Positions 13,289-61,427 of a DNA stretch of 64,000 bases are shown piece after piece (the stretch's first letter is position 1; every line of letters starts with the position of its first letter). The notes under the pieces were generated by a model. The model was not told where the DNA came from, made no database searches, and saw nothing but the letters and a program-made list of their open reading frames with translations. This DNA is from a bacterium (lineage in GTDB: Bacteria; Bacteroidota; Ignavibacteria; Kapaibacteriales; UBA2268), in assembly GCA_037127915.1 (NCBI GenBank), contig JBAXXL010000007.1:27636-91635 (forward strand). Reading direction: 5' to 3'. A program made the translations under genes and the position numbers.

Positions 13289-13422
13289 AGAACTTTTCCA
13301 ATTTCTTTTTTTTCCTATAACTAAATTATCATTTTTTTTTAGTTTAAACAAATATTATTTCTAATTTCTTTTTCTTCCTACTTTATGAACTTTACGAACC
13401 TGATAAACTTTATAAACTATGT

Positions 13423-15456: not shown

Positions 15457-15491
15457 AAAAATCTATTCTAATTTCTTATTTCTCATTTTTT

Positions 15492-15527
15492 TTCTTCTCT
15501 TCTTCTCTTCTTCTCTTCTTCTCTTCA
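15492..15527. repeat. Microsatellite (TTCTTCTC) about 4.5 units, immediately followed by (AACTTTATGA)-type 9-10 bp tandem repeats to 15575
   Basis: Direct reading: ttcttctcttcttctcttcttctcttcttctcttc then aactttatgaactttatgaactttacaaactctataaac. Confidence 0.8.
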
Positions 15528-15578
15528 TCTTTACTAACTTTATGAACTTTATGAACTTTACAAACTCTATAAACTCAT

Positions 15579-43269: not shown

Positions 43270-44460
43270 ATGAAATTCATTAGTAGAATCTCGAGAACAG
43301 TTTGGGTTCTATCGCTTGTAAGTTTATTTACAGATATTTCAAGCGAAATGCTCTATCCGATTATGCCGATATATTTAAAAAGTATCGGCTTTTCTATTTT
43401 ACTAATCGGCATTTTAGAAGGTTGCGCAGAAGCTACTGCCGGTTTGAGCAAAGGCTATTTCGGCAAATTGTCGGATATAAAAAACAAACGCCTTCCTTTC
43501 GTTCAATTAGGTTATCTTTTAAGCGCAGTTTCTAAACCTATGATTGCCCTCTTTACAAACGCGTGGTGGGTTTTCTCAGCACGAACCTTGGATAGGTTAG
43601 GCAAAGGTATAAGAACCGGTGCGAGAGACGCTCTGCTATCAGATGAAGCTACTCCCGAAACCAAAGGAACGGTTTTTGGTTTCCACAGGGCAATGGACAC
43701 TGTTGGAGCGGCTATCGGACCAATTGTAGCTCTGACTTTCCTCTATTTCTTCCCCGGGAAATATAGAATCCTGTTTTTTATAGCTTTTCTACCCGGATTG
43801 ATAGGAGTTTTCACAACCCTATTGATAAAAGAAAAGAAATCTCAACCAGTGCCAAGCAAAACGAAGAACACTTTCTTTAGTTTTTTGAAATACCTACCTC
43901 AGAGCCATAAAGAATACAAAATATTACTAATAGGATTGCTCGCGTTTACGTTGTTTAATAGTTCCGATGTATTCTTATTGCTGATGCTTAAGCATCAAGG
44001 TATGAGCGATATAGGATTAATTGGAGTCTATATCTTTTATAACCTTATCTATGCTCTATTCTCCTATCCGGTTGGAATAATAGCCGATAAAATTGGTTTC
44101 AAAAGAATTTTTGTAATTGGATTGATTATATTTAGCGGTGTATATCTGGGAATGGCTTTTAATACAGCCACTTTTGGTTTTTATGCACTATTCTTTTTCT
44201 ATGGAATTTATGCCGCTTGTACAGAAGGAGTTTCAAAAGCTTGGATAAGCAATATTTCCGATAGAAAAGATACTGCCACGGCTATTGGGACTTATGAAGC
44301 ATTTAAAAGTATCGCTACACTGATTGCAAGCTCTGTCGCAGGATTAATTTGGCAATTTAGGGGAGCATCGACTACCTTTATTGTAACAGCTATTGCAGTA
44401 ATATGCGTATCTTTATACTTTATAATAATATCAGGACGTAAGGTAGAAATACCAAAATAA
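43270..44460 (+). CDS. MFS transporter
   Basis: 12 predicted TM helices; the GKLSDIKNKRLPF and DRLGKGIRTGARDALLSD loop motifs are typical of MFS. Confidence 0.75.
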   Translation: MKFISRISRTVWVLSLVSLFTDISSEMLYPIMPIYLKSIGFSILLIGILEGCAEATAGLSKGYFGKLSDIKNKRLPFVQLGYLLSAVSKPMIALFTNAWWVFSARTLDRLGKGIRTGARDALLSDEATPETKGTVFGFHRAMDTVGAAIGPIVALTFLYFFPGKYRILFFIAFLPGLIGVFTTLLIKEKKSQPVPSKTKNTFFSFLKYLPQSHKEYKILLIGLLAFTLFNSSDVFLLLMLKHQGMSDIGLIGVYIFYNLIYALFSYPVGIIADKIGFKRIFVIGLIIFSGVYLGMAFNTATFGFYALFFFYGIYAACTEGVSKAWISNISDRKDTATAIGTYEAFKSIATLIASSVAGLIWQFRGASTTFIVTAIAVICVSLYFIIISGRKVEIPK

Positions 44461-44616
44461 AAAAACAGCTCCAGGGTCAAACAAACAATCGACTGACAAA
44501 TTAATTCTAGTGTGCAAAAACTAAAATGATTGTATGTAACTTGGAGCAGTAATTCTAAATTATTTAATTATAAGGGTGTATATGTAACACCCTTATAAAG
44601 TGTAAAAAAAGGTATA

Positions 44617-46242
44617 TTATCTTGTAATTACTATTTTTGTGGAGGTGGTATAATCATCAACTTTTGTTTTAATTATATAAACACCACTTTCTAAATTAGA
44701 TCCTTCAATTGTGAATGACTTCTCACCTATCGCTAAAATTCCATCATAAATTACTTTCACTATTCTACCGTTAATGTCGCATAATTCAATTTGGATATGT
44801 TTTGTTTCAAGCATGTTAATTACGCATTTGGTAGAACTATTAAACGGATTGGGGTTAACATTAATAGAGAAAATCGAATTATCATCACCAACCGCACCCT
44901 GTCCACTGGCTTTGCCTGTAATAGCAACATCTTTTTGCGGTGTACCTTCATCGTTAGAATAAATCCTCAATGTAGCTGTATAATCTCCAATTTCTAACGG
45001 ATTAAATGTTACATCAATTTGAATAGAATCTTTACCGTCAATATATACAGGACCCGAAAAAGTATTGATTGAAAAGGCTTCTTTATTATTATTCAATAGT
45101 TGAACATTATTAATCTTCAATTCTCCATCACCACTATTTTTAATAGAAAACTTCTTGGTTTTGGAAGAACCCTCTTCTAATAAACCCATATCAAAGCTAG
45201 ATGCACAGCTGATTTGCGGTTTGGAGGAAATCCCCTTACCCGATAAATTTAATGTATAATCTGTATTTGTTTCATCGTTGGATGTAATTACTAATTGAGA
45301 ATTATATTGCTTGCTTTCTTTCGGTGTAAATTTGACAACAACAGTTTCTGTTCTGCCGGCACCGATTTTTAATGGGAATCCCGGATTCATAAACACAAAA
45401 GCCTTGTCAGGATTATTATTTATAACCATTTTACTTATTGACAATACAGCATCACCTGCGTTTTTAATCTTCAATTCGAATTCTTTTGTGGAATCTATTT
45501 CGGCTTCACCAAACTTTATATCTGTATCAATTATATTTATTAGCGGTTTAGGCGTATTACTTGAATCTGCAATACAACGAATACATACACCGATAGATTT
45601 TGGTATGTTCATTAAAACAAATGTCGAAGCACCGATTTCAATTACCGGAGCATTTTCGGCATCGGCTTGTTCTGAAGTGTAGTAATAAGTTCTTGTATCG
45701 GCGGCGGTTGCACTTACTCTAAAACTTCCGGTGAAAGTACATCTGTAGCCTGTTAATAGGGCATTAAAACCGGACGAACCTCCGGTGAGCATAGCAGTTG
45801 CTAGTGTTGGTTGATCTTTAGCTCCAATAGTGGCAAACAGAGTATTCCACTCCGCGTTTGAAGGAATATGCCAACCGTTTGGACAAATTCCACGAGTTGG
45901 AAGTTGAGGTTGTTGGCCTGTATAATTTTGCAGTGCCTCTTTCCATTCGTAAAATCCGCCTCTTTTCATTTGACCATTAGTTCCATCACATCCTTGAGTA
46001 CCGTTATCCCAACAATAACGTTCAATTTTTCCATTATCACTCATTTGATAACCAGCCTGTGTGGACATAATCAGTTCACCCACATTTAAATTTTCGGTCA
46101 TCCACACTTGTGAACCGATTTGTGCCGTTCTATATACTTTGCTATCACGTGGATCGGTGAAGTCTTCGCCTGGAACCCAAGCATACGTAGCAACAGACCA
46201 AAAGCCAATTATTACAGCTATAATTGTAAATAATCTTTTCAT
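44617..46242 (-). CDS. Secreted protein with N-terminal FISUMP domain, Ig-like (ASH-type) domains and T9SS C-terminal sorting domain
   Basis: VWMTENLNV...GFYEWKEA...GWHIPSNAEWNTL...GFNALLTGYR...IRCIAD is a FISUMP-type domain placed at the N-terminus. C-terminal FSINVNPNPFNSSTKCVI...IELCDINGRIV...ESGVYIIKT is a T9SS CTD. Confidence 0.7.
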   Translation of the reverse strand: MKRLFTIIAVIIGFWSVATYAWVPGEDFTDPRDSKVYRTAQIGSQVWMTENLNVGELIMSTQAGYQMSDNGKIERYCWDNGTQGCDGTNGQMKRGGFYEWKEALQNYTGQQPQLPTRGICPNGWHIPSNAEWNTLFATIGAKDQPTLATAMLTGGSSGFNALLTGYRCTFTGSFRVSATAADTRTYYYTSEQADAENAPVIEIGASTFVLMNIPKSIGVCIRCIADSSNTPKPLINIIDTDIKFGEAEIDSTKEFELKIKNAGDAVLSISKMVINNNPDKAFVFMNPGFPLKIGAGRTETVVVKFTPKESKQYNSQLVITSNDETNTDYTLNLSGKGISSKPQISCASSFDMGLLEEGSSKTKKFSIKNSGDGELKINNVQLLNNNKEAFSINTFSGPVYIDGKDSIQIDVTFNPLEIGDYTATLRIYSNDEGTPQKDVAITGKASGQGAVGDDNSIFSINVNPNPFNSSTKCVINMLETKHIQIELCDINGRIVKVIYDGILAIGEKSFTIEGSNLESGVYIIKTKVDDYTTSTKIVITR

Positions 46243-46294
46243 AATAAATCTTCCCTTTTATTAAAAAAATGAAATTAATTTTCTAAATTTATTA

Positions 46295-46315
46295 AATGTA
46301 AAATTAAAAAAAATT
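46295..46315 (-). promoter_or_regulatory. Shared 21-nt AT-rich motif AATGTAAAATTAAAAAAAATT (plus strand) upstream of T9SS cargo gene 44617..46242
   Basis: A near-identical copy lies at 49955..49976 upstream of gene 47792..49924. Confidence 0.4.
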
Positions 46316-46330
46316 CTGATATGTTGTACT

Positions 46331-47734
46331 CTATCTTTTAATATTTATTTTTTTAAAGTAACTTTTACCGTTATTGGTTAGTTCTATGAGATAACAACCA
46401 GATGGAATGTTACTAATATCAACTTCGAGAGAAATTCTTCCTATTGGGGAAATTTTATCTGTAATTTGTTTTACAATTTTTCCATCTAAATTGATTATTT
46501 GAATTTTGATATTAGTTGATGTGGTTACTTTGTAATCAATCCTTAATACGTTTTCCGCAGGATTTGGATAAACATTAAAATTATCTATTAATTGTTCTGC
46601 ATCATCGATACTTGAATAACTGCTATCCGCTTCGGCAAAAAATTCAATATACTCTTTGTTGCTGTTATTAAAATAATTACTAAAGAGCATTTTCGCGTAA
46701 CCTTGCCCCTTTTTACCCGTTCTGAAAGCTAATTTAAAAACCTTGGTCTCAAGCGGTTTCAAATACATTACAACACTATCCATATCAATCGGAAAACCGC
46801 CATCGGCTGAAAAGTTTACCATCCAATCCATCGGTATGTTTTGGTCTGCAACTTTAATATCTATAAACATTTCTTTGTCCGATGTATTTGTAATTTCGGC
46901 TGATAACTCTAAGCTATTTCCAGGAATTCCTTTAACTTTATTCTGTGAAATATTCGTGATAAAAACAGTGTTCTTATAGAATTCTGTAGTTTTTGATAAT
47001 AATGCTCTTATATCGCGTAGCATATAATATCCCTTGTTGTTCATCCACGAATTGAACCAGGAATTTCTACCGACAACTACACCGTCCGGAGTGATCAAGT
47101 ATGCAATTACCGCACCCGGTCCAAAATGAGTCCAATATTCATTACAAGGTCCATCAATCAAAATTTCAGATTTGATATTTAAGCTTTCTGATGTTAGTCT
47201 TACCATATCCTTGCGTTCGAGATAGGTCTTTGGTTGACGGAAATATATACCTTCGGCTTCATTTTGTGGAGTTATCCAAACTTCTCCGGGAGAATTCGTA
47301 TAGGGACTAACATCAACAACGGGATGTGCTTCAACACAATAAACAATAAATGTAGAAAGTCTATCATAGAAATCGTCATAAATAGCGTTAAGATTCTTAT
47401 ATCTTAATCGAAATACAGGACAAGTATAGCTACCAGTTACGATTAAAATAGGCTTTCCTTTGGAAAGCTCGTTTTTAATATTAAACTCTTTATCATCAAG
47501 AGTATAAAGTGTAAAATCCGGAATAGTATCACCAATTTGATAACCGTAGGATTTAAAAGAATTATCCGGAGCAAAGGGAATTTCGCATATTAAATCTGTA
47601 TCCTGCGGCTTTACACTTTGCCCAATAAATGGCTTTAATTTTATATCTTGCCCGGATAAATCATCGAACAAAATACAAACAAATAGCATAAGACAAAGAA
47701 ACTTCTTTAACTCAATTATCGTCATTCTTAACAT
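46331..47734 (-). CDS. Secreted thioredoxin-fold protein, iodothyronine-deiodinase-like (Cys variant), with T9SS C-terminal sorting domain
   Basis: IPDFTLYTLDDKEFNIKNELSKGKPILIVTGSYTCPVFR resembles the deiodinase active-site region (FGSxT-U/C-PxF) with Cys in place of Sec. C-terminal FNVYPNPAENVLRIDY...IQIINLDGKIV...SGCYLIELT is a T9SS CTD. Confidence 0.5.
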   Translation of the reverse strand: MLRMTIIELKKFLCLMLFVCILFDDLSGQDIKLKPFIGQSVKPQDTDLICEIPFAPDNSFKSYGYQIGDTIPDFTLYTLDDKEFNIKNELSKGKPILIVTGSYTCPVFRLRYKNLNAIYDDFYDRLSTFIVYCVEAHPVVDVSPYTNSPGEVWITPQNEAEGIYFRQPKTYLERKDMVRLTSESLNIKSEILIDGPCNEYWTHFGPGAVIAYLITPDGVVVGRNSWFNSWMNNKGYYMLRDIRALLSKTTEFYKNTVFITNISQNKVKGIPGNSLELSAEITNTSDKEMFIDIKVADQNIPMDWMVNFSADGGFPIDMDSVVMYLKPLETKVFKLAFRTGKKGQGYAKMLFSNYFNNSNKEYIEFFAEADSSYSSIDDAEQLIDNFNVYPNPAENVLRIDYKVTTSTNIKIQIINLDGKIVKQITDKISPIGRISLEVDISNIPSGCYLIELTNNGKSYFKKINIKR

Positions 47735-47791
47735 AATTTAACTCTCAAAATTTCACATTAGAAAGTATAAAATCACTTAGTTTGCAGAATG

Positions 47792-49924
47792 TTACCTTAC
47801 TACAATTTTATCCGTCAAACTGCCATCCGCAGAATGAACTCTTACAAAATAAACGCCCGCGGCGACTCTTGAATTTTCGGAATTAGTTAAGTTCCATATA
47901 AATTCCTGCTGACCTGCTGAAACACTTCCATTGAATAAAGTTTTTACTCTAATACCGCTTTGATTAAATACTTCGACATTGATTGTGGAAGCGCTTAATA
48001 AATTCAACGATATTGTGCTTTCAGTTTCTGCCGGATTAGGATATGAATTAATAGAGAACAATGCGTCATCGCTAACAGAAGAAGAATACATAATATCAAC
48101 CTTTGCCGCTTTACCATGTGCGTAATATGTACCGGTATTTGAAGTTAACAATTCGGCAGTTCGTACTTGGAAATAAATCCTGCCTTCTTTGGCAACATCA
48201 ACTATCATTTCATTTGTTGTAAGGGGTTGTGTATTTACTTTAGTCCAAGAATCTTCAGTTCCGTACCGCATATAGACGTTATAGTGATATACATTTTCGG
48301 TTAGCGCGGCATCCCATTTTAATTGCACAGAGTTTTTGCTATTTTGAACAGCTGATAGATTTTGTATTGAACAGGTTAGGTAACTATCCATTCTTAAAGT
48401 CGGATCACCTAATAAGCACATTTGCCTTCCGGCCAACCCGTTATCCTCAGTTCCCCAACTGCCATTATTTGGATTATTAAATAAATTAGCATAATAAATT
48501 CGTCCTTCATCTGAGTCATTATTTTGGCTTGTTGTTACACTTTTTCCAATAGGTTTACCCATACCCATTTCGTGAAAATACCAATGTGGTCTTCCGTCCC
48601 AACAGCTAGTTAGTGCTGAAGAATCAGAACATAAAGCGGCGCGTAATATATTATTCGAATTATCCCAATCACCGAAATATGACCCAAACATAAATGTAAA
48701 AATTGCATTGATGTTTTTTCCAACAAAATCAGTTGTAACACCAACACCATTACAACTTTGATATGATCCGCCACCCGTACCATAAGCCATTAAGTATTTT
48801 CCTTCGACAAGAGTCTGAATATACTGGTATTCATCAATTCCCGTAACATTTTCGTTCCCGCATAATGATGCAATATTTCGCCAACCCGAAGAAGCAAAAC
48901 CTTCAAGCATAGTTTTAAAGTTATCCATTACTATCCCGCGCTTAGGAAAATCCTTTTTGCCGCCTATTCTATATGAATGATCTTTGTTCAAATATGCTCT
49001 TAATAATTCTATTTCAGGATTTTCCCAACCTGATTTATGAAAAGCCTGCATATTGTATAAATCAACTCTTCCCACACCCAGTTCGGTATTAAAGGAACCA
49101 AGAGCATCTAAATCAAATTTACCATCGTTGGGAACATTACGATTTTCAGGTCTGTCTGCAGAAGAAGTTTTAACGTTGAAATCAGTCCAACCCGTATTAT
49201 CCATTTCACCATAATACATATCAGCAGGCCAAGCACCAACATGTTCTGGATGTCCATCAGTATTAGATATTCCTGAATAAGGTACCGGCACTCTGCCAAA
49301 TAAAAATACTGTCGTTATTTTTTTATCTTTAGCCCATTCGTCTGCAATGACTTTTTTTACTTTTTTCACTTTGGCGCCGTTGAATTGTTCGGCTCTTGTT
49401 ACTAAGCGCAAAACTACAGCCCAGCCTTCGTTTTCCATATCGCTTATTAAACGGCTTACTTGAGCGTAAAGCGGTTCATAGACTGTTGAATCTACCAAAA
49501 GCAGTACTTTCCCCATTTCATATTCCCGTGCTTCTATGCCGCCTTCTACATAACCGAAACCATAATAATTTTTGGGGTTATTATTTCCATAATTATAGAT
49601 TGCTTTGCCTAAAGCCGCGATTTTGTACGTATAACGCTCACCTATGACAACGCTTTTATCGATGTAGCTGTAAATACCTGAATCAACATTAGCGATGGCG
49701 GTAGTTGGGAAAGCAATATCGGTAGCTTTCTTTCTATAAATCTCGTATTTTATTTGTGAATCGTTTGGTGCCCAGCTCAGCATTAATTGTGGTTCTGTCC
49801 CACCTGTCGCTTGAGCATTAATCATCACAGCATGGTCTTGGTTTTTTAAATCCCTATAAGCGGATAAATCCATATAAGCAATTGATAATACAAAGAGAAT
49901 GATAATAAGTAATCTTGTTCTCAT
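47792..49924 (-). CDS. Large secreted fn3-containing protein with T9SS C-terminal sorting domain; possibly a C25/caspase-fold cysteine peptidase-like protein (tentative)
   Basis: Signal peptide, fn3-like modules (QLMLSWAPNDSQIKYEIYRK; VQLKWDAALTENVYHYNVYMRYG). TDGHPEHVGAW could carry a catalytic His but no convincing Cys motif was found. C-terminal FSINSYPNPAETESTISL...VEVFNQSGIRV...AGVYFVRV is a T9SS CTD. Confidence 0.5.
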   Translation of the reverse strand: MRTRLLIIILFVLSIAYMDLSAYRDLKNQDHAVMINAQATGGTEPQLMLSWAPNDSQIKYEIYRKKATDIAFPTTAIANVDSGIYSYIDKSVVIGERYTYKIAALGKAIYNYGNNNPKNYYGFGYVEGGIEAREYEMGKVLLLVDSTVYEPLYAQVSRLISDMENEGWAVVLRLVTRAEQFNGAKVKKVKKVIADEWAKDKKITTVFLFGRVPVPYSGISNTDGHPEHVGAWPADMYYGEMDNTGWTDFNVKTSSADRPENRNVPNDGKFDLDALGSFNTELGVGRVDLYNMQAFHKSGWENPEIELLRAYLNKDHSYRIGGKKDFPKRGIVMDNFKTMLEGFASSGWRNIASLCGNENVTGIDEYQYIQTLVEGKYLMAYGTGGGSYQSCNGVGVTTDFVGKNINAIFTFMFGSYFGDWDNSNNILRAALCSDSSALTSCWDGRPHWYFHEMGMGKPIGKSVTTSQNNDSDEGRIYYANLFNNPNNGSWGTEDNGLAGRQMCLLGDPTLRMDSYLTCSIQNLSAVQNSKNSVQLKWDAALTENVYHYNVYMRYGTEDSWTKVNTQPLTTNEMIVDVAKEGRIYFQVRTAELLTSNTGTYYAHGKAAKVDIMYSSSVSDDALFSINSYPNPAETESTISLNLLSASTINVEVFNQSGIRVKTLFNGSVSAGQQEFIWNLTNSENSRVAAGVYFVRVHSADGSLTDKIVVR

Positions 49925-49954
49925 GAAACTCTCCTAAAAATATTAAATAAATAT

Positions 49955-49976
49955 AATGTAAAATTAAAAAAAAATT
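49955..49976 (-). promoter_or_regulatory. Second copy of the shared AT-rich motif (AATGTAAAATTAAAAAAAAATT) upstream of gene 47792..49924
   Basis: Matches 46295..46315 except for one extra A. Confidence 0.4.
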
Positions 49977-50018
49977 GTAATTTTATTAGTATTTATTTTC
50001 AAAATTTCAAAAAATAAT

Positions 50019-52805
50019 ATGAATTTCTTTGAGAAACATAGTTGGTTGTTTCGGATTTTACTGCTATCTTTAGCTATAATATTCATTTACATAATACTAC
50101 TTCAATTAACGGGCAGGCAAACTGATCAAAATTCGTTTACCGGCTTGAAAAATTTTCTATATGTAAACAAAAACTTAGTGGTTTACAACGATAATGGCAA
50201 AGTGGATACTTTGAATAGTTTCGATTGTATTATGGAAATTGATTCCAAAGCAGTAGTTTCTCCAGAAATATTCAAAAGCATTGCCGACGATAGTAAAAAG
50301 TTCCACCAAATTAAAGTTTTACATTTACCCGATTCTGCGCTTTCTATTAAAAAGATACAAAAAGACAATCTTGTTCAAGAAAATTTTATGTTCTTTAGTT
50401 CCGGAATTTATATTTTCTCTGTTCAAAAGAATGGAACCTCCTACAAGGCAGGGGTTCGTAAAGGCGATTTACTGTTAAGGATTAATAACTATAAAACCAG
50501 CGACCCTGTTCAAGCTGACAATATTATTCGTAATAATACACCGGAAAAACTAATAAAATATGACATCATAAGAAATGGAACAATTAAGTCATATTATGTA
50601 GAATTAGCGAAAATAACCCTTAAAGTATATTTCGTAATCTTTATTATTACAGGATTTATTTTCTTAATAACTTCGCTATTTATTGGTTTAAACCGACCTA
50701 AATTAAAATCCGCCCGATTAACGTCGTTGGCTTTGGCAATGTTCGGATTTGTTTTGGTAGTATCATTTGGTTCATTATCTTCCCCAAGCAGTACTGCCGC
50801 GGTTATAACATTCTTATTTATGGGAATATTAGCATATTTTTGGATGCCTGTATCTATCCACAGTTTGTTTTACTTTCCAACAGAATATATTACTATACCA
50901 AATAAAAAATGGCTTATCAGATTTCCGTATTTTTTGATAATTCTGTGTATTGTTTCGCGTTTCCTTCTTACTGTATTTGGTAGTGAATTTGATAAAACCT
51001 TCACTATATTCAATTATTTACTTGTATTTTATTTAATCTATTTGTTGTTTTACATATACAAGATAACACCCCCTAACTTACGCCACATACTAAAAGCTCC
51101 TTATATAGGTTGGTTACTTTTTTGTATCTCTTATATTATAATCGGTATTGTTGGTACCTTTGTAATCAAATCACCGGCAATAGCTGAAAAATACTTGTAT
51201 TTAAATTATATTTTGTTAAGTTCGGTATTTATACCATTGGCATATATTTATTCAATAAGTAAAAATAGTCTGTTTAAACTTCGTATGAAAATGCGTAGAA
51301 ATATTAAATATCTTCTGATTTCATTTATTTACAAGTTGATATTATTTGTCGGATTAGCGTATGTGATTCATTTAGCACTGCATATAAATGTGATTTTCCC
51401 AAGTATTCGATTTACATACACAACCATTGAATATTTAGAAAAACCTTTAAGACCGGCACTACAAGTATATTATTCGAAATTATTAGCAATTCTATTTTCA
51501 TTGGTAGGTATATATTTTTACAGAAAATTCGTAAAACTTGGTCAGAAAATATTAGATGATATTTTTTACCGTGTTCATGTGGATTTCCGCCAATTATCTG
51601 CTCAAATGCATCAATTACAGCAAAATGATATTGAAGCAAACAAATTGGCCGATAATTTTATTAAAACTCTTAGCCATGGAATGAAATTGAAGCATGGCGG
51701 AATTTTATTTATCGGTGATAATAACGAAATTGTTGTTCAGAAATACTACGGTTTCAAATCCAATACCGAGCTTCGCGAGTTTATATCTTTAATCTCAAAA
51801 GATTTAATATGTGAAACAATGAAACATAAAGATCCATTTTCTACTTCTTTATTGAACGACAATATCAAATCCGTTTTTGATGAATATCAAATAGAATATA
51901 TTGTTCCTGCTATATCGAAAGATAAATATCATGGGATTATTTTAATAGGTGAAAAACTTTCCGAAAGCACTTTCAACACCGAAGAATTAAGCTTTATGAA
52001 AGATATAGCCGACCACGCATCTGTCGTAATAGAAAATGCTCTACTTTATCAGAAATCATTAAAACAAGAACGTTTGAACCATGAATTGGAATTAGCTAGA
52101 CAAATTCAATATAACTCTTTACCTCAATCGAATCCTAAAATTGATTGTTTCGACATATATGGCTTATCCGCTCCGGCTTATGAAGTTGGCGGTGATTTTT
52201 ATGATTATTTCCATGAAGGTAACTACTTGGACGTAATTATTGGCGACGTTGCCGGCAAAGGTACATCTGCGGCGATGTATATGTCAAATGCCATCGGTAT
52301 TATAAGAACTTTACAAAAATTCTCTTTAAACCCTAAGCAAATTCTTATAAATTTGAATGAGCTAATGAGTAATAATCTCAGCAAAAATTCTTTTATTACT
52401 GCGCTTTGCGGTAGATTTGATATTGCTAAAAAGACACTTACCATATCTAGAGCAGGACATATCCCATTGTATCATTATAATTCATTAACAAATTCAGTTG
52501 AAAAATTAATTCCTAAGGGAATTGCAATAGGGGTAGTTGACACACCATCATTCACTCATATAACGGAAGAAATGCTGTTGCCATATAATACCGGTGACAT
52601 TTTCTTGTTTGTTACAGACGGAATAATTGAAGCTAGAGGTTATGAAAATGAAGAACTTGGCGAAAGTTTAATTTATAAACATATAAAGAATCAAAAACTT
52701 ACCGCTAATCAGTTAATCCAAAACATTATCATTGATATTAATAACATTGCTTCTGAAAATCCTCAATTTGATGATATAACTGCAGTTGCGATAAAAATAA
52801 TATAG
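50019..52805 (+). CDS. Membrane-bound PP2C-family (SpoIIE/RsbU-like) protein phosphatase with N-terminal PDZ domain, multi-TM sensor region and GAF-like domain
   Basis: GVRKGDLLLRINNYK...KYDIIRNG is a PDZ-like domain. About 8 TM helices follow. C-terminal GGDFYDYFH...VIIGDVAGKGTSAAMYMS...RAGHIPLY...FVTDGIIEAR are SpoIIE/PP2C motifs. Confidence 0.75.
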   Translation: MNFFEKHSWLFRILLLSLAIIFIYIILLQLTGRQTDQNSFTGLKNFLYVNKNLVVYNDNGKVDTLNSFDCIMEIDSKAVVSPEIFKSIADDSKKFHQIKVLHLPDSALSIKKIQKDNLVQENFMFFSSGIYIFSVQKNGTSYKAGVRKGDLLLRINNYKTSDPVQADNIIRNNTPEKLIKYDIIRNGTIKSYYVELAKITLKVYFVIFIITGFIFLITSLFIGLNRPKLKSARLTSLALAMFGFVLVVSFGSLSSPSSTAAVITFLFMGILAYFWMPVSIHSLFYFPTEYITIPNKKWLIRFPYFLIILCIVSRFLLTVFGSEFDKTFTIFNYLLVFYLIYLLFYIYKITPPNLRHILKAPYIGWLLFCISYIIIGIVGTFVIKSPAIAEKYLYLNYILLSSVFIPLAYIYSISKNSLFKLRMKMRRNIKYLLISFIYKLILFVGLAYVIHLALHINVIFPSIRFTYTTIEYLEKPLRPALQVYYSKLLAILFSLVGIYFYRKFVKLGQKILDDIFYRVHVDFRQLSAQMHQLQQNDIEANKLADNFIKTLSHGMKLKHGGILFIGDNNEIVVQKYYGFKSNTELREFISLISKDLICETMKHKDPFSTSLLNDNIKSVFDEYQIEYIVPAISKDKYHGIILIGEKLSESTFNTEELSFMKDIADHASVVIENALLYQKSLKQERLNHELELARQIQYNSLPQSNPKIDCFDIYGLSAPAYEVGGDFYDYFHEGNYLDVIIGDVAGKGTSAAMYMSNAIGIIRTLQKFSLNPKQILINLNELMSNNLSKNSFITALCGRFDIAKKTLTISRAGHIPLYHYNSLTNSVEKLIPKGIAIGVVDTPSFTHITEEMLLPYNTGDIFLFVTDGIIEARGYENEELGESLIYKHIKNQKLTANQLIQNIIIDINNIASENPQFDDITAVAIKII

Positions 52806-52812
52806 AAGTTAA

Positions 52813-53913
52813 ATGCAAAATAAATCTAAACCTGAATGGATACCCGATAACGCGGGTAATGAATATACTACGAGTATAATGCCCGGTATTAAAGATATAA
52901 AGCACAAATCTAAACCCGGTAAAACTGCAAAACATTTAACAGTTGATGATTATACTAACGGAATTTTGGCTGGTAATATTACAATTTTGTCAAAAGCAAT
53001 TACTTTAATCGAAAGTAACGCCCAAAGACACTATCATTTAGCCCAGGATGTTTTAAAAAATGTATTACCCTATTCCGGAAATTCGATAAGAATTGGTGTA
53101 ACAGGTTCTCCGGGTGCGGGAAAAAGTACGCTTATAGAATCCCTCGGTTTAAAACTTATTAAAAATGGCCTAAAAGTTGCCGTCTTGGCAATTGACCCGA
53201 GCAGTACCGTCACACATGGGTCTATTTTGGGTGATAAAACGCGCATGGAGAGTTTGTCGCAGGAAACACGAGCATTTATCAGACCTTCTCCTTCAAGTGG
53301 AACCTTGGGCGGTGTAACGCGAAAAACTAGAGAAACAATGCTCCTCTGTGAAGCTGCGGGATACGATGTGATTTTAATCGAAACCGTCGGTGTTGGTCAG
53401 AGCGAAACAACAGTCCGTTCTATGGTAGATTTCTTTATGCTTCTTTTACTTCCGGAAGCGGGCGATGAATTGCAGGGTATCAAAAAAGGTGTTGTTGAAT
53501 TGGCTGATTTATTAGTCGTTAATAAAGCTGAAGCACAAAATAAAATGCGCGCTGAATTAACACAACGGGCTTATTCAAATGCATTATCACTTCTACAACC
53601 CGCAACCAAAGGTTGGTCTCCAAAAGTGCTAACTTGTTCAGCTGTTGAGGAAACCGGAATATGGGAAATCTGGTCCGCGGTGAATGAATTCCGCTTGATA
53701 ACAGAAGATTCAGGAATTTTTAGAGAACGTAGGCAAAAGCAATTATTGGATTGGGTGGATACTATGCTCAACGATGGATTACAAAGAATGTTCTTCGATA
53801 ATCCATTGATTAAAAGTAAATATAAAATATGTCAAGAAGCCGTATTGAAAGGTACTATGACTCCATCGCAATCTGTATTTGATTTATTGGAAATTTTTAG
53901 AAAGACAAAATGA
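52813..53913 (+). CDS. meaB: Methylmalonyl-CoA mutase-associated GTPase MeaB (ArgK family)
   Basis: GVTGSPGAGKSTLIE P-loop, AIDPSS, IRPSPSSGTLGG, ETVGVGQSE motifs. Confidence 0.8.
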   Translation: MQNKSKPEWIPDNAGNEYTTSIMPGIKDIKHKSKPGKTAKHLTVDDYTNGILAGNITILSKAITLIESNAQRHYHLAQDVLKNVLPYSGNSIRIGVTGSPGAGKSTLIESLGLKLIKNGLKVAVLAIDPSSTVTHGSILGDKTRMESLSQETRAFIRPSPSSGTLGGVTRKTRETMLLCEAAGYDVILIETVGVGQSETTVRSMVDFFMLLLLPEAGDELQGIKKGVVELADLLVVNKAEAQNKMRAELTQRAYSNALSLLQPATKGWSPKVLTCSAVEETGIWEIWSAVNEFRLITEDSGIFRERRQKQLLDWVDTMLNDGLQRMFFDNPLIKSKYKICQEAVLKGTMTPSQSVFDLLEIFRKTK

Positions 53914-58922: not shown

Positions 58923-61427
58923 CTAATTTTCTAATTTCCATTTGTGAATCAGTTCTGCGTACTTTTTCGCTAACGATTCAACCGATTCAGCTGAAAAACT
59001 TTCAGCAAATATACTGAATATCCCCTTTTCTTGGTCTGGTAATATCAATACATTTTCCGATTCACTTTCAAATATCTTAATTCCGTCAATAAGTTCGCGC
59101 TTCATATCATTACTGTAATCCATTGCTTTACGCATTACCGCACCTTTTTTATACCACGGAACGCTTACATAAATCAATTTGTTATGCGTCTGCGGTAAAC
59201 TATCATCGATTTGCGAGATTGTTAATCCCGAAGTAGCTAACATTTCTAAGATTTTGCCTATCGAGAACATAGCATCCGATGCGAATAAAAAGTCAGTAAA
59301 CACGTATCCGCCATAAATACCGCCAACAAACAAATAGTTGTCATCCAACGTGATATCCATCATAGCGGAATGGTTGTTTTTAACACGAGTAACCTCGACA
59401 TTATAATCTTTTGCTATTATATCAATAGTGTTAGGCGCGGCAACCGATACCGCAATCTTATACGGCTCTCTATGACGATTGGTTTCCAAAAATAATTTAG
59501 TAATAATGGAGAGCATTCTATTTTGTGAATACCATCTCCCCCGCTCATCAATAATGGAAATTTTTTCCGCACCGCGAAGTATCGAAAATCCAAGTTCATA
59601 TCCAAGCGATGTCATAATTTTGCCACTTGGGTCTTCGTCCAAATTGCCTTCTGTAGGATCGGGATGAAATTTATATGCGTCGATGTAATTATTCAATGAC
59701 AATGCATTTACATTTAGTTCACCCAAAACGCTTGGGAAAATTGTCGAAGCCATTCCATAGGAGTAATCTATCAATAATTTAAAATTTCCAGAGCGAACGC
59801 GCTCAATATCCAAAGCTTCAAGATATCTATTTCTATATACTTCAATTGACCGGTCAGAATAAACGAGGCTTCCAATTTCGTTAAAGTTAACTCTCTTTAT
59901 ATCTTCACCAAAGAAGTAACGCTCAATTTTTTTTGTCGTCGATATAGGAATATCCCTGCCATCTTTAGAAAATATTATAATATCTGTACAATTTGGTAAA
60001 CGCAGTGATGGTCGTACGTGAATTCCGCCTTCGAATTTTCCTCTTTGTAATTCCTGACGTGTTTGTGGAATCGGAATTTCCTGAATATCGGAAACATTAA
60101 CTCCTACTGAGGCTAACCCGCAAGTAATAGCGCGTTTTATAATCCTTGAAACAAGGTCAGGAGCACGACTGGCGCAGATAGTAGTATTTTTACCGAAAGT
60201 CAATCCTAAAGCTGAGCCTAACTTAGCCGCAAATTCAGGATTAATTTCTATATTAGATATACCTGTGATACGGGCACCCGAGAATAGCTCGCGTTGCCAT
60301 TTATCTTCTTGCACTAGTGAAGTTGACAGAGTGGCACCATCTTCTATCCGTTTATTAGGCCAAAGTTTTATATTCGAATTAATAACAGCGTTTTTTCCTA
60401 CTTTGCAATTCTCTGCTATAAATACATTATCAGAAACAAATACTTCTGAACCGATTATGCAGTTGGAGCAGATTACATCGGAGTTCAATTCAGCAAAATC
60501 ATCAATTTGGACATTGTCCCAAAGTGTTGTTCTATTGAGTTTAACACCATTGCCAATAATAACTTTATCACCGATTATACAATTGGTAATTACTGCGCCC
60601 TCGCCTATCTTTGTGTTTTTACCAATATGATTATTTTCATTAAAAATTGCGGATGCGGCTATTTCGGAAGTCCTTCCCATAACAGAAAGTTCGTTGCAAT
60701 CAGGATGGTGTAGAGTACATTTGCCATTCAAGGCATCTAATTGGCTTTGCTGATATTCGTTCAAATTACCGATATCACGCCAATAACCATCGGCTATATA
60801 ACCGTATAATGGCAAGCCTTTTCTTAACATATCCGGAAATAAATCCTGACTGAAATCATATTCCTTTTGGTAAGGAATCAAATCCATTATTTCCGGTTCA
60901 AATATATAAATTCCGGTATTAATCGTATCGCTGAAAACTTGTCCCCAAGATGGCTTCTCTAAAAAGCGAGAAATTTTCCCTTCGGGTTCGGTCATTACAA
61001 TACCGTATTGAAGCGGTGTTTCAACGCGCGTTAAAAGTATGGTTGCCATAGCGCCTTTTTCTATATGGAATGCCAAGGCTTTTTCAATATCAAAATCAGT
61101 GAGAACGTCGCCGCTGATAACAATAAATCTTTCCTTCAAACCTTCAGCGGCATTACGAACAGCACCTGCTGTACCGTAATCTTCTTCTGCAATGACATAT
61201 TTCATATCTATGCCATGCTCGACACCCTTGCCAAAATGATTTATTATAGTATCAGGTTGAAAATAAAGCAGTGATGTAACATCAACTATATTATGGTGTT
61301 TTAACAAGTAAACTATATGCTCCATCATTGGAGCGTTCATAATGGGAACCATTGGTTTGGGAATACTCATTGTAAGTGGCCTTAAGCGTGTACCGAAACC
61401 GCCTGCCATAATAACTGCTTTTTTCAT
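58923..61427 (-). CDS. Bifunctional sugar-1-phosphate nucleotidyltransferase (GDP-mannose pyrophosphorylase-like, with left-handed beta-helix) and phosphohexomutase-like domain
   Basis: MKKAVIMAGGFGTRLRPLT nucleotidyltransferase motif, hexapeptide-repeat region, and a C-terminal alpha-D-phosphohexomutase-like region (GGIHVRPS resembles the active-site loop); 834 aa. Confidence 0.65.
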   Translation of the reverse strand: MKKAVIMAGGFGTRLRPLTMSIPKPMVPIMNAPMMEHIVYLLKHHNIVDVTSLLYFQPDTIINHFGKGVEHGIDMKYVIAEEDYGTAGAVRNAAEGLKERFIVISGDVLTDFDIEKALAFHIEKGAMATILLTRVETPLQYGIVMTEPEGKISRFLEKPSWGQVFSDTINTGIYIFEPEIMDLIPYQKEYDFSQDLFPDMLRKGLPLYGYIADGYWRDIGNLNEYQQSQLDALNGKCTLHHPDCNELSVMGRTSEIAASAIFNENNHIGKNTKIGEGAVITNCIIGDKVIIGNGVKLNRTTLWDNVQIDDFAELNSDVICSNCIIGSEVFVSDNVFIAENCKVGKNAVINSNIKLWPNKRIEDGATLSTSLVQEDKWQRELFSGARITGISNIEINPEFAAKLGSALGLTFGKNTTICASRAPDLVSRIIKRAITCGLASVGVNVSDIQEIPIPQTRQELQRGKFEGGIHVRPSLRLPNCTDIIIFSKDGRDIPISTTKKIERYFFGEDIKRVNFNEIGSLVYSDRSIEVYRNRYLEALDIERVRSGNFKLLIDYSYGMASTIFPSVLGELNVNALSLNNYIDAYKFHPDPTEGNLDEDPSGKIMTSLGYELGFSILRGAEKISIIDERGRWYSQNRMLSIITKLFLETNRHREPYKIAVSVAAPNTIDIIAKDYNVEVTRVKNNHSAMMDITLDDNYLFVGGIYGGYVFTDFLFASDAMFSIGKILEMLATSGLTISQIDDSLPQTHNKLIYVSVPWYKKGAVMRKAMDYSNDMKRELIDGIKIFESESENVLILPDQEKGIFSIFAESFSAESVESLAKKYAELIHKWKLEN

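What the first reader, a model, noticed from the sequence alone, without database searches (positions are those of the whole stretch)
46331..47734. Secreted deiodinase-like thioredoxin-fold protein on a T9SS tail
The motif LIVTGSYTCPVFR closely resembles the iodothyronine deiodinase active-site segment (FGSCT-Sec-PPF) with Cys replacing selenocysteine. It sits in a thioredoxin-like context (PDFTL...GKPILIV). Bacterial deiodinase-like proteins are poorly characterised, and one that is exported to the cell surface is unusual and suggests extracellular redox or dehalogenation chemistry.
Basis: partly seen in the sequence, partly recalled or inferred. Interest (0 to 1): 0.5.

Follow-up and report, generated by a model that had tools for sequence, protein, structure and literature searches.

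The report
Secreted cysteine-type deiodinase-like redox protein
This gene encodes a real bacterial relative of the enzymes that remove iodine from thyroid hormone, built with cysteine instead of selenocysteine and fitted with export signals that send it to the cell surface. It belongs to a sizeable, unstudied family whose actual substrate is unknown.

Summary
ORF 46331-47734 (-), 467 aa, contains LIVTGSYTCPVFR (aa 97-109) and ends in a type IX secretion (T9SS) type A sorting domain that passes the curated cut-offs.

Deiodinase-specific residues are kept in register: Pro(-10), Ser-x-Thr-Cys-Pro-x-Phe, Tyr-x-x-Glu-Ala-His-Pro, Trp, Gln, Arg, Asp and Asn. Missing are selenocysteine, both accessory cysteines, His219 and the membrane anchor.

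The protein belongs to an always-exported family: 352 clusters at E<=1e-30, in Bacteroidota, Ignavibacteria and Kapabacteria-like MAGs. Members carry one invariant nucleophilic Cys plus a Cys50-Cys197 pair that is lost only together, which I read as a disulfide. No gene neighbour is conserved and nothing has been published on this architecture.

Function is inferred, not shown. My best guess is a surface-displayed 1-Cys reductase, acting as a deiodinase-type dehalogenase (about 0.3) or a peroxidase (about 0.25). It is a new variant of a known, uncharacterised kind, of moderate interest.

The parts
46331..47734 (-). Whole ORF, 467 aa plus stop. The order is signal peptide, N-terminal extension, deiodinase-like thioredoxin-fold domain, Ig-like spacer, T9SS C-terminal domain.
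47651..47734 (-). Predicted Sec signal peptide, aa 1-28 (MLRMTIIELKKFLCLMLFVCILFDDLSG). Inferred cleavage is before Gln29, as expected from the Bacteroidetes 'Q-rule'.
   Evidence: The hydrophobic run is read directly from the sequence. 84 of 85 relatives have a Gln at the same place, just before the conserved IG motif. The Q-rule is described in PMC5837995. The cleavage site is inferred and was not predicted with a dedicated tool.
47537..47650 (-). Family-specific N-terminal extension, aa 29-66 (consensus LKPxIGxxxLPxDxDxICxIPxY). It carries Cys50 (nt 47585-47587).
   Evidence: I37, P43 and C50 are nearly invariant. The model places a strand at aa 34-38 with pLDDT above 90.
46985..47536 (-). 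Deiodinase-like thioredoxin/peroxiredoxin-fold catalytic domain, aa 67-250.
47408..47434 (-). Active-site motif GSYTCPVFR, aa 101-109. Cys105 (nt 47420-47422) sits at the position of Dio3 Sec170, at the N-terminal cap of helix alpha1.
   Evidence: T104 and C105 are 85/85 invariant and R109 is 83/85. The mapping is S102=Ser167, T104=Thr169, C105=Sec170, P106=Pro171, F108=Phe173. The helix runs aa 106-122 in the model.
47321..47332 (-). E135-A-H137-P138, equivalent to the Dio3 Glu200-Ala-His202-Pro motif at the start of loop-D.
   Evidence: All four residues are 85/85 invariant and align to Dio3 200-203. Their role in the Dio proton relay is described in PMC11592359.
47141..47155 (-). D194-G-P-C197-N198 loop, equivalent to Dio3 Asp244-Thr-Met-Ala-Asn248. 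Cys197 (nt 47144-47146) is the inferred disulfide partner of Cys50.
   Evidence: D194 is 85/85, C197 is 84/85 and N198 is 81/85. Cys50 and Cys197 are lost only together.
46619..46969 (-). Ig-like beta-sandwich spacer domain, aa 256-372, with no Pfam family.
   Evidence: The model is all-beta here with pLDDT mostly above 90. Foldseek matches tandem Ig-like barrels of transglutaminases, RbmA and CEP192. The domain is absent from the ~320-aa and ~240-aa family members.
46334..46573 (-). T9SS type A C-terminal sorting domain, aa 388-467.
   Evidence: PF18962 scores 53.1 bits (cut-off 27) and TIGR04183 scores 41.9 bits (cut-off 23). The profile hits solved T9SS CTDs 8GLK and 8GLJ at E 1.7e-9 and 2.6e-7.

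Best explanation
The gene encodes an exported, cysteine-type member of the iodothyronine-deiodinase branch of the thioredoxin/peroxiredoxin fold.

Route. A Sec signal peptide takes the protein to the periplasm, with inferred cleavage before Gln29. There it folds and Cys50-Cys197 form a structural disulfide that ties the N-terminal extension to the DGPCN loop (inferred). The type A C-terminal domain then directs it through the type IX secretion system to the cell surface or the medium. This follows from established knowledge of CTD cargo. An Ig-like domain acts as a spacer.

Chemistry (inferred). Cys105 sits at the N-cap of helix alpha1 in the deiodinase motif S-x-T-C-P-x-F. It is the only redox-active residue, so this is a 1-Cys mechanism. 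As a thiolate it attacks an electrophilic atom of a small, probably aromatic or hydrophobic, substrate. The conserved deiodinase-type hydrogen-bond relay (Ser102, Thr104, Tyr132, Glu135, His137) supplies the proton to the leaving group.

My single most likely reaction is deiodinase-like abstraction of a halogen as X+ from a halogenated phenolic compound, giving Cys-S-X and then Cys-SOH (about 0.3). Reduction of a hydroperoxide by the same residues is nearly as likely (about 0.25). There is no resolving cysteine and no partner gene. The oxidised cysteine would therefore have to be recycled by environmental thiols or sulfide, or the protein turns over only once.

Sub-confidences: homology to deiodinases 0.9; export through T9SS 0.85; Cys50-Cys197 disulfide 0.75; Cys105-based redox catalysis 0.6.
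For: Homology.
- T4_deiodinase is the best Pfam hit and matches 27/28 family members, best E 7e-13. AhpC-TSA matches 16/28 and Redoxin 14/28.
- NF038285 'deiodinase family protein' scores 71-74 bits here and matches 28/28 members.
- The family profile against PDB gives Dio3 4e-10 and Dio2 6.8e-9. The next thioredoxin-fold protein is GPx5 at 1.5e-4.
- hhalign gives 98% probability and E 9e-13.

Fold.
- Models have pLDDT 89.5 (full length) and 92.9 (domain).
- Foldseek gives 4TR3 E 6.7e-9 with TM 0.72 and 9H48 with TM 0.74.
- The order of secondary-structure elements matches the seven strands and four helices described for Dio2 and Dio3 (PMC11592359).

Residues.
- Dio3 P160, S167, T169, Sec170, P171, F173, Y197, E200, A201, H202, P203, W207, Q218, R225, D244, N248 and G255 all align to identical residues, with Cys at the Sec position.
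- T104, C105, E135, A136, H137 and P138 are invariant in 85/85 relatives.
- In the tandem two-domain protein P0042, the second domain has lost the Cys (to Ser) and the His (EASP) together.

Disulfide. Cys50 and Cys197 are both present in 84/85 relatives and both absent in L064, in P0040 and P0041, and in many domain-only forms. Cys105 stays in all of these.

Export. The CTD is above its cut-offs. There is a signal peptide and a Q-rule Gln in 84/85 relatives. At least six CTD proteins lie in this window.

A natural Cys-type deiodinase is catalytically active: the amphioxus enzyme of Klootwijk 2011, cited in PMC8143656.
Against: - No activity has been measured for any bacterial deiodinase-like protein (PMC1088965, PMC13188914).
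- The protein scores below Pfam's gathering threshold (23-25 bits against 27).
- Cys is a much poorer halogen acceptor than Sec (own knowledge of Dio Sec-to-Cys mutants).
- Dio3 His219 is Pro168 here. The proximal Cys168 and distal Cys239 are Tyr103 and Ser189.
- The region of the thyronine-binding Arg275 does not align reliably. It holds an invariant Trp226 instead.
- No reductant is known at the outer surface of a Gram-negative cell.
- No conserved neighbour was found across 80 loci: no DsbD/CcdA, halide transporter or aromatic-catabolism gene.
- I could not read model coordinates, so no Cys-Cys distance was measured.
- The conserved relay could equally serve peroxide reduction, or be mainly structural.
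Confidence: 0.45

Rival explanations
1. It is a surface or extracellular 1-Cys thiol peroxidase. Cys105 reduces H2O2 or organic or lipid hydroperoxides to a sulfenic acid. The deiodinase resemblance only reflects the common peroxiredoxin-like ancestry of both groups.
Against: The Prx signature PxxxTxxC is absent. Pro is at -10 and Ser at -3, exactly as in deiodinases. The Prx catalytic Arg position before strand beta3 is Val209 here, Asn in the family consensus and Glu259 in Dio3. Prx models score lower than deiodinase models in every test. The problem of an outside reductant applies here too.
Confidence: 0.25
2. It is a thiol-disulfide oxidoreductase or covalent thiol 'catcher' acting on proteins or on low-molecular-weight disulfides or thiols outside the cell. 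One example would be loosening disulfide-rich protein substrates for secreted proteases, in the manner of TlpA/ResA/DsbE-like proteins or the T9SS cargo HBP35.
Against: There is no CxxC. The motif is C-P-V-F, with Phe/Tyr/Trp at +3 in 82 of 85 relatives. ResA, DsbE and MauD models match only 2-8 of 28 members, and weakly. The invariant Glu-Ala-His-Pro, loop-D and the other Dio-specific residues have no role in that family.
Confidence: 0.12
3. It is a non-catalytic or metal- or ligand-binding surface protein that merely retains a thioredoxin-fold scaffold. It could be a pseudo-enzyme or adhesin, or a Cys/His/Glu metal site as in SCO1-type proteins.
Against: The Cys and the relay residues are strictly invariant in 85/85 relatives spread over several orders, which is typical of catalysis. 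SCO1-type matches are much weaker than deiodinase matches. The CxxxC...H copper motif is absent.
Confidence: 0.1

Closest known systems
Vertebrate iodothyronine deiodinases Dio1-3 (structures: mouse Dio3 4TR3/4TR4, mouse Dio2 9H48)
   Different: This protein has Cys instead of Sec. It has no proximal or distal accessory Cys, and His219 is replaced by Pro. Loop-D is about 11 residues longer. There is no N-terminal transmembrane anchor. Instead it has a cleavable signal peptide, an extra N-terminal extension tied by an inferred disulfide, an Ig-like spacer and a T9SS sorting domain. It is extracytoplasmic, not cytosol-facing. Sequence identity is only 16-20%.
Amphioxus non-seleno (Cys) deiodinase (Klootwijk et al. 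2011, cited in PMC8143656)
   Same: It is a natural Cys-for-Sec replacement in a deiodinase-family active site that is still catalytically active in dehalogenation.
   Different: It is an animal, membrane-anchored, intracellular enzyme that acts on thyroacetic acids. I did not compare the sequences because I did not hold that sequence.
Bacterial 'deiodinase-like' selenoproteins and their Cys homologues from marine metagenomes (Zhang, Fomenko & Gladyshev 2005, PMC1088965; listed with motif UxxC in PMC13188914), and NCBIfam NF038285 'deiodinase family protein'
   Same: These are prokaryotic PF00837-related proteins of unknown function. NF038285 matches this protein at 71-74 bits over profile positions 174-295.
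   Different: The selenoprotein form is listed as UxxC, whereas this family is C-P-V-F like the animal U-P-P-F. NF038285 is a 347-position model with about 170 N-terminal positions that have no counterpart here, and its cut-off is 250 bits. No Sec (in-frame TGA) member was seen among 85 relatives. Export signals and T9SS domains are not described for those groups.
Porphyromonas gingivalis HBP35 (PMC2907840, PMC3120885)
   Same: It is a thioredoxin-fold redox domain fused to a T9SS C-terminal domain, secreted by the T9SS and displayed on the surface.
   Different: HBP35 has a classical thioredoxin CxxC-type motif and binds haemin. It is not deiodinase-like, and there was no sequence match to it in any search here.
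1-Cys and atypical 2-Cys peroxiredoxins (Prx6, AhpE, Bcp/PrxQ, Tpx)
   Different: This family lacks PxxxTxxC and the Prx catalytic Arg. It keeps the deiodinase-specific Glu-Ala-His-Pro, loop-D and DxxxN motifs.

Membership tests
Iodothyronine deiodinase family (Pfam PF00837 T4_deiodinase) | Score at or above the Pfam gathering threshold (27 bits) | tested here: not met
   The score is 23.3 bits for the full protein and 25.1 bits for the domain alone (E 4.5e-5 and 1.3e-5), over aa 67-139 only. It is still the best Pfam hit for the domain. 27/28 family members match at E<=0.01, best 7.1e-13.
Iodothyronine deiodinase family | Thioredoxin fold extended by an N-terminal Prx-like two-strand module and the deiodinase insertion (loop-D, helix alphaD, strand betaD) | tested here: met
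Iodothyronine deiodinase family | Active-site motif G-S-x-T-Sec-P-x-F with Pro at -10 | tested here: met
   P95...G101-S-Y-T-C105-P-V-F108 aligns without gaps to Dio3 P160...G166-S-C-T-U170-P-P-F173. T104 and C105 are 85/85 invariant.
Iodothyronine deiodinase family | Catalytic residue is selenocysteine | tested here: not met
   The codon at nt 47420-47422 encodes Cys. All 85 relatives have Cys and none has an in-frame stop at this position.
Iodothyronine deiodinase family | Hydrogen-bond/proton relay: Ser167, Thr169, Tyr197, Glu200, His202 (Dio3 numbering) | tested here: met
   The equivalents are S102 (Ser 60, Asn 24 of 85), T104 (85/85), Y132 (81/85), E135 (85/85) and H137 (85/85). The relay is defined in PMC11592359.
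Iodothyronine deiodinase family | Sixth relay residue His219 (Dio2 His182) | tested here: not met
   It aligns to Pro168. The family has Pro 74, Ala 5 and His 4 of 85 at this position.
Iodothyronine deiodinase family | Accessory cysteines: proximal Cys168 and distal Cys239 (Dio3) for resolving the oxidised Sec | tested here: not met
   They align to Tyr103 and Ser189. The family's other conserved cysteines are at different positions (Cys50; Cys197 = Dio3 Ala247) and behave as a pair.
Iodothyronine deiodinase family | Thyronine-binding clamp Arg275 (Dio3) or Lys241 (Dio2) in the beta4-alpha3 loop | tested here: inconclusive
   hhalign does not align this loop reliably. The corresponding family segment is K-H-G-W226-F-N with an invariant Trp and no basic residue.
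Iodothyronine deiodinase family | N-terminal transmembrane anchor, with a cytosol-facing homodimeric enzyme | tested here: not met
   The N-terminus is a cleavable-type signal peptide followed by Gln. The C-terminus is a T9SS sorting domain. Dimerisation was not tested.
Iodothyronine deiodinase family | Reductive deiodination activity | not testable with these tools
   This needs a biochemical assay.
NCBIfam NF038285 deiodinase_rel ('deiodinase family protein') | Full-length match above the curated cut-off (250 bits, 347 positions) | tested here: not met
   The score is 71.4-73.8 bits and covers only profile positions 174-295. All 28 family members match, best E 3.2e-27, which is likewise far weaker than a 250-bit match would give.
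T9SS type A cargo (TIGR04183 / PF18962 C-terminal sorting domain) | C-terminal sorting domain above curated cut-offs, at the extreme C-terminus | tested here: met
   PF18962 scores 53.1 bits against 27 and TIGR04183 scores 41.9 bits against 23, over aa 388-466 of 467. The profile matches solved CTDs 8GLK and 8GLJ.
T9SS type A cargo | N-terminal Sec signal peptide | tested here: met
   There is a hydrophobic h-region at aa 12-23, and Gly28|Gln29 fits the Q-rule. The same layout occurs in 84/85 relatives (PMC5837995). No dedicated signal-peptide predictor was available.
T9SS type A cargo | T9SS machinery in the same genome, and actual secretion | not tested
   No machinery gene was looked for. 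At least six CTD-bearing ORFs lie in the 64-kb window, which implies a working T9SS. Secretion itself needs experiments.
Peroxiredoxin (Pfam PF00578 AhpC/TSA; PF08534 Redoxin) | HMM score above the gathering threshold (26 / 26.6 bits) | tested here: not met
   The scores are 18.6-19.7 and 16.9-18.0 bits.
Peroxiredoxin | PxxxTxxC active-site signature and the conserved catalytic Arg before strand beta3 | tested here: not met
   Pro is at -10 and Ser at -3. The Arg position is Val209 here, Asn in the family consensus and Glu259 in Dio3. Placing the Prx Arg at this position rests on my own knowledge of Prx alignments.
TlpA/ResA/DsbE-type thiol-disulfide oxidoreductases | CxxC redox pair at the N-terminus of helix alpha1 | tested here: not met
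   The motif is C105-P-V-F108, with aromatic residues at +3 in 82/85 relatives. ResA and DsbE models score E 0.018-0.052 for this protein.

The most novel reading that the evidence does not exclude
This family may be a cofactor-free, cysteine-based reductive dehalogenase displayed on the outer surface of Bacteroidota, Ignavibacteria and Kapabacteria. It would be a prokaryotic, extracellular counterpart of thyroid-hormone deiodinases that strips iodine or bromine from halogenated phenolics, such as algal bromophenols, iodotyrosines, or thyroid hormones and iodinated xenobiotics in wastewater. Environmental thiols or sulfide would serve as the reductant. If so, it would also indicate what the deiodinase fold did before thyroid signalling existed.
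Probability: 0.15. Interest if true: 0.75.

Novelty: new variant of a known kind. Interest (0 to 1): 0.42.

Why it matters
Bacterial deiodinase-like proteins have been known from sequence since 2005, and a 2026 review still lists them without a function. This analysis defines a coherent, always-exported clade: 352 clusters at 50% identity with E<=1e-30, and 180 matching stretches in species-representative genomes. The clade keeps the animal-type active site and most of the deiodinase proton relay. It also replaces Sec with Cys, has lost both accessory cysteines, has gained a covarying cysteine pair, and is usually fused to a T9SS sorting domain.

That gives experimenters a soluble, selenium-free, signal-peptide-defined domain of about 225 aa with clear mutational targets (C105, E135, H137, R109, W226). 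With it they can ask what deiodinase-type chemistry does outside animals. If the domain dehalogenates, it would be a new class of extracellular dehalogenase, relevant to halogen cycling and micropollutant removal. If it is a peroxidase, it shows that the 'deiodinase-specific' residues are not specific to dehalogenation. Public annotation of the family is currently inconsistent: 'T9SS type A sorting domain-containing protein', 'hypothetical protein', 'TlpA family protein disulfide reductase' and 'peroxiredoxin'.

Tried and rejected
1. Gene neighbourhood. I clustered all ORFs of at least 90 aa from 80 related loci. Nothing is shared beyond lineage synteny. The largest co-occurring cluster, in 12 loci, is a group of large repeat-rich, adhesin-like ORFs, mostly in Saprospiraceae and Lewinellaceae loci. 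I saw no DsbD/CcdA, no recurring halide transporter and no aromatic-catabolism gene. Contexts of P0151 and P0313 were also unrelated.

2. Domain fusions as functional hints. A second profile search listed 120 relatives with their Pfam content. These showed only PF00837/PF00578/PF08534 plus PF18962, with one unexplained PF21274.

3. Selenocysteine forms. No in-frame stop occurs at the active site in 85 relatives. N-terminally short database entries such as P0182 look like fragments, and I did not pursue them.

4. Promoter and terminator scan of 44300-50200. Counts equal those of shuffled sequence, so it is uninformative about an operon.

5. AFDB Foldseek search. That library was not available.

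6. Model coordinates. They are not exposed to scripts, so I could not measure Cys-Cys distances or inspect the pocket. I used covariation of Cys50 and Cys197 instead.

7. The upstream 710-aa T9SS protein. No catalytic domain was found by Pfam, NCBIfam or PDB sequence search.

8. Rejected readings. Generic AhpC/TSA or redoxin is rejected on lower scores and the wrong motif register. TlpA/ResA is rejected because there is no CxxC. Formal membership of NF038285 is rejected at 71-74 bits against 250.
Full report
OBSERVATION. The ORF at 46331..47734 on the minus strand is real: 467 aa with an ATG start. A second ATG at codon 4 gives the 464-aa product used in one public annotation of the identical gene. 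That gene lies on contig CAZYBI010000007.1 of assembly GCA_964645665.1. NCBI names the 467-aa version 'T9SS type A sorting domain-containing protein [bacterium]'. The quoted motif LIVTGSYTCPVFR is aa 97-109 (nt 47408-47446). PDFTL and GKPILIV lie just upstream of it. The last 80 residues match the T9SS type A sorting domain well above curated cut-offs: PF18962 53.1 bits against 27, and TIGR04183 41.9 bits against 23.

ANATOMY. A full-length AlphaFold model built on 38 homologues is confident (mean pLDDT 89.5). It shows, in order:
- an N-terminal hydrophobic helix (the signal peptide);
- a short extension with a strand at aa 34-38;
- an alpha/beta domain at aa 67-250;
- an all-beta Ig-like domain at about aa 256-372;
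- the beta-sandwich sorting domain at aa 388-467.

The signal peptide ends ...DDLSG|Q29. In 84 of 85 relatives a Gln sits at the same place, right after the hydrophobic run and a few residues before a conserved IG motif. That is the layout of the Bacteroidetes 'Q-rule' for signal peptidase I substrates (PMC5837995). The cleavage site itself is inferred.

IS IT DEIODINASE-LIKE OR A GENERIC REDOXIN?

(a) Pfam. T4_deiodinase is the best hit for the domain, at 23.3 bits for the full protein and 25.1 bits for the domain alone. AhpC-TSA scores 18.6-19.7 and Redoxin 16.9-18.0. All are below their gathering scores. Across 28 family members, T4_deiodinase matches 27 (best E 7e-13), AhpC-TSA 16 and Redoxin 14.

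(b) NCBIfam. NF038285 'deiodinase family protein' scores 71-74 bits here and matches 28 of 28 members. This is only over profile positions 174-295 of 347 and far below the cut-off of 250.

(c) PDB by sequence. A profile of the catalytic domain searched against all PDB sequences finds mouse Dio3 (4TR3, E 4e-10) and Dio2 (9H48, E 6.8e-9). The next thioredoxin-fold protein is a glutathione peroxidase at 1.5e-4. ResA, DsbE and Bcp are at 1e-3 or worse.

(d) Profile against profile. Comparison with Dio3 and Dio2 gives 98% probability and E 9e-13 over 170 columns.

The 20-30 extra aligned residues fit a shared deiodinase insertion. The model's element order is the seven-strand, four-helix topology described for Dio2 and Dio3 (PMC11592359): two N-terminal strands, b1, a1, b2, a long loop, aD, bD, a2, b3, b4, a3.

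RESIDUE-LEVEL COMPARISON (Dio3 numbering first). These positions align to identical residues:
- Pro160 = P95, Gly166 = G101, Ser167 = S102, Thr169 = T104.
- Sec170 = C105, Pro171 = P106, Phe173 = F108.
- Tyr197 = Y132, Glu200 = E135, Ala201 = A136, His202 = H137, Pro203 = P138.
- Trp207 = W153, Gln218 = Q167, Arg225 = R174.
- Asp244 = D194, Asn248 = N198, Gly255 = G205.

T104, C105, E135, A136, H137 and P138 are invariant in all 85 relatives I aligned. The Dio2 structure paper assigns Ser, Thr, Tyr, Glu and two His residues to a catalytic proton relay. Five of those six are kept here and the sixth, His219, is Pro168.

Several deiodinase features are not kept:
- selenocysteine: Cys in all 85 relatives, with no in-frame stop;
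- the proximal Cys168, which is Tyr103 here;
- the distal Cys239, which is Ser189 here;
- the N-terminal membrane anchor;
- probably the thyronine clamp Arg275. Its loop does not align, and the family has an invariant Trp226 in that segment.

Loop-D is about 11 residues longer than in Dio3. The family also adds an invariant Arg109 one helical turn after the cysteine. The peroxiredoxin signature PxxxTxxC and the Prx arginine are absent, and so is a CxxC.

THE OTHER CYSTEINES. Apart from Cys105, two cysteines are conserved in the domain. Cys50 lies in the N-terminal extension. Cys197 lies in the DGPCN loop, at the position of Dio3 Ala247. Both are present in 84 of 85 relatives. In the single exception (L064) both are replaced, by Ser and Gly. 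The two divergent homologues P0040 and P0041 lack both. So do many domain-only forms, whose loops read DSPDN, DGPGN, DAPDN or DTPQN, while forms that keep Cys50 keep Cys197. Cys105 is retained throughout.

Repeated joint loss is what a disulfide pair predicts. I therefore infer a structural Cys50-Cys197 bond, which leaves Cys105 as a lone nucleophile. I could not check distances because model coordinates are not exposed.

One further hint concerns Cys105 and His137. In the tandem two-domain protein P0042, the second copy has lost both at once (GSYTSP and EASP). This suggests the two residues work together.

THE FAMILY.
- Size. A search of 1.84 billion cluster representatives with the domain profile gives 352 clusters at E<=1e-30, 1442 at E<=1e-10 and 2956 at E<=1e-3.
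- Architectures. About 440-470 aa is domain plus Ig-like spacer plus CTD. About 320 aa is domain plus CTD. About 240 aa is the domain alone. Every domain-only form I read begins with a signal peptide or a lipoprotein-type signal ending in Cys, so the family looks extracytoplasmic throughout.
- Distribution. A scan of species-representative genomes found 180 matching stretches. The best 80 are all in metagenome-assembled genomes. Most are Bacteroidota (Saprospiraceae, Lewinellaceae, Chitinophagales, Flavobacteriales, Vicingaceae), several are Ignavibacteria, and a few are bins labelled as other phyla. They come from wastewater, freshwater, marine, soil and subsurface samples.
- Position of this protein. 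The window protein is a divergent member, at most 49% identical to any other. It lacks two further cysteine pairs present in most members (near aa 240/249 and 309/313). It also has GAVI where the consensus is APNN before strand b3.
- Host. The MeaB protein of this window is closest to named Kapabacteria (61-62% identity), then to Ignavibacteria (57-58%). The host is therefore probably a deep-branching Kapabacteria-like member of the FCB group.

CONTEXT. Across 80 loci no neighbouring gene is conserved beyond lineage synteny. The gene is normally stand-alone, with no dedicated reductase, transporter or catabolic partner. In this window it lies between two other T9SS cargo genes on the same strand, with gaps of 57 and 88 nt. 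Upstream is a 710-aa protein with only fn3 and CTD matches. Downstream is a protein with a FISUMP domain, two Ig-like domains and a CTD. The closest relative, P0002, is likewise followed 20 nt downstream by a FISUMP plus Ig gene. That pairing is therefore conserved within this small sub-lineage, but it is absent from the other 80 loci. Consensus promoter and terminator scans are uninformative. The wider surroundings are housekeeping genes: FabH, a FabK-like gene, MeaB and PrmA.

HOW IT MOST LIKELY WORKS.
Shown by computation: the domain is a homologue of the deiodinase catalytic core with the animal-type active-site register; it carries a signal peptide and a T9SS sorting domain; Cys105 is the only invariant cysteine that does not covary with another.

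Inferred from established T9SS knowledge: Sec export, folding and disulfide formation in the periplasm, then CTD-dependent translocation and either release or surface attachment.

Inferred chemistry: Cys105 sits at the N-cap of helix alpha1 and acts as a thiolate nucleophile on an electrophilic atom of a small substrate. The pocket is rich in invariant aromatic residues (F74, Y103, F108, Y145, Y171, W201, W226) and has two invariant arginines. The Glu135-His137-Tyr132-Ser102-Thr104 network delivers a proton to the leaving group.

The only characterised relatives remove a halogen as X+, and a natural Cys form does so (amphioxus, cited in PMC8143656). I therefore rank deiodinase-type dehalogenation of a halogenated phenolic first, at about 0.3. 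Hydroperoxide reduction by the same residues is close behind, at about 0.25. The relay could serve either reaction, peroxides are ubiquitous, and Cys is a poor halogen acceptor. Thiol-disulfide exchange (0.12) and a non-catalytic or metal-binding role (0.1) follow.

A common weakness of all catalytic readings is the missing reductant outside the outer membrane. The enzyme would depend on environmental thiols or sulfide, or act stoichiometrically.

COMPARISON WITH WHAT IS KNOWN, AND NOVELTY. Bacterial deiodinase-like proteins, both Sec and Cys forms, were reported from the Sargasso Sea in 2005 with the comment that they probably serve another redox function (PMC1088965). A 2026 review still lists them as uncharacterised and gives the selenoprotein motif as UxxC (PMC13188914). 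That motif differs from the C-P-V-F here. No paper in the searchable library contains both 'deiodinase' and 'type IX secretion'. A thioredoxin-motif T9SS cargo does exist, P. gingivalis HBP35 (PMC2907840, PMC3120885), so a redox domain on a T9SS tail is not unprecedented.

The protein works like, and is homologous to, a deiodinase core. It fails several membership features of the animal enzyme family: Sec, the accessory cysteines, His219, the membrane anchor and the formal Pfam threshold. It is not a member of NF038285. I therefore file it as a new variant of a known kind. It is an exported, 1-Cys, disulfide-braced and mostly T9SS-linked clade of the deiodinase-like superfamily.

VERDICT. What remains open is the substrate. 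Interest is moderate (0.42). The family is sizeable, coherent and experimentally tractable, and it bears on what deiodinase chemistry is for outside animals. However, the evidence for any particular function is indirect, and secreted thioredoxin-fold proteins of unknown role are common.

Noticed in passing
window 2214-17612 (-): There are seven tandem paralogous ORFs of 670-712 aa: 2214-4241, 4463-6532, 6742-8790, 8987-10999, 11213-13351, 13423-15456 and 15579-17612. The first was checked and has a VWA domain (aa 84-240) and a C-terminal FISUMP/Fib_succ_major domain (aa 487-674). This is a striking local expansion of a putative surface or adhesin family.
   Followed up: partly
window 17708-22138 (-): This is a 1476-aa ORF directly upstream of the paralog array, with VWA, several Ig-like domains and a T9SS sorting domain. 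At least six CTD-bearing ORFs lie in the 64-kb window. The others are 29229-31616 (transglutaminase-like core plus CTD), 31683-33296, 44617-46242, 46331-47734 and 47792-49924.
   Followed up: partly
window 47792-49924 (-): This 710-aa T9SS cargo lies immediately upstream on the same strand, 57 nt away. About 500 N-terminal residues have no family or solved-structure match. Only fn3, FlgD-Ig-like and CTD hits were found. Its function is unknown.
   Followed up: partly
window 44617-46242 (-), and the contig of P0002: The downstream neighbour, 88 nt away, has a FISUMP domain, two choice-of-anchor-D Ig domains and a CTD. The closest relative of the deiodinase-like protein (P0002, 49% identity) is also followed by a FISUMP plus Ig gene, only 20 nt downstream. 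The pairing is absent from 80 other loci. It may be lineage synteny or a local functional pair.
   Followed up: partly
window 46331-47734 (-), aa ~207-210, ~240-249, ~309-313: The window protein and P0002 form a divergent sub-clade. They have GAV[IL] instead of the family's APNN before strand b3. The window protein also lacks two cysteine pairs that most members have: one near the end of the catalytic domain (66/85) and a CxxxC in the Ig-like domain (82-83/85).
   Followed up: partly
P0042 (469 aa); loci L021, L048, L074: P0042 carries two deiodinase-like domains in tandem, and the second has lost both the Cys (to Ser) and the His (EASP). Some genomes carry two or three copies of the family within one locus: L021 has three hits, and L048 and L074 have two each.
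   Followed up: no
window 58923-61427 (-): This is an 834-aa fusion of a nucleotidyl transferase, a hexapeptide-repeat (LbH) domain and a complete phosphoglucomutase/phosphomannomutase. It looks like a fused sugar-nucleotide synthesis enzyme.
   Followed up: no
window 52813-53913 (+) and the whole window: The host is annotated only as 'bacterium'. Its MeaB is 93% identical to unnamed metagenome proteins, but only 61-62% identical to the nearest named taxa (Candidatus Kapabacteria/Kapaibacterium) and 57-58% to Ignavibacteria. The window therefore comes from a poorly sampled FCB-group lineage. GC content is about 29-39%.
   Followed up: partly
L084 8225-9991 (-): In one relative's locus a CLC-type voltage-gated chloride (halide) channel gene lies about 1.3 kb downstream, and a small CTD protein overlaps the 3' end of the deiodinase-like gene. 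This is a single case and does not recur in the other loci.
   Followed up: no
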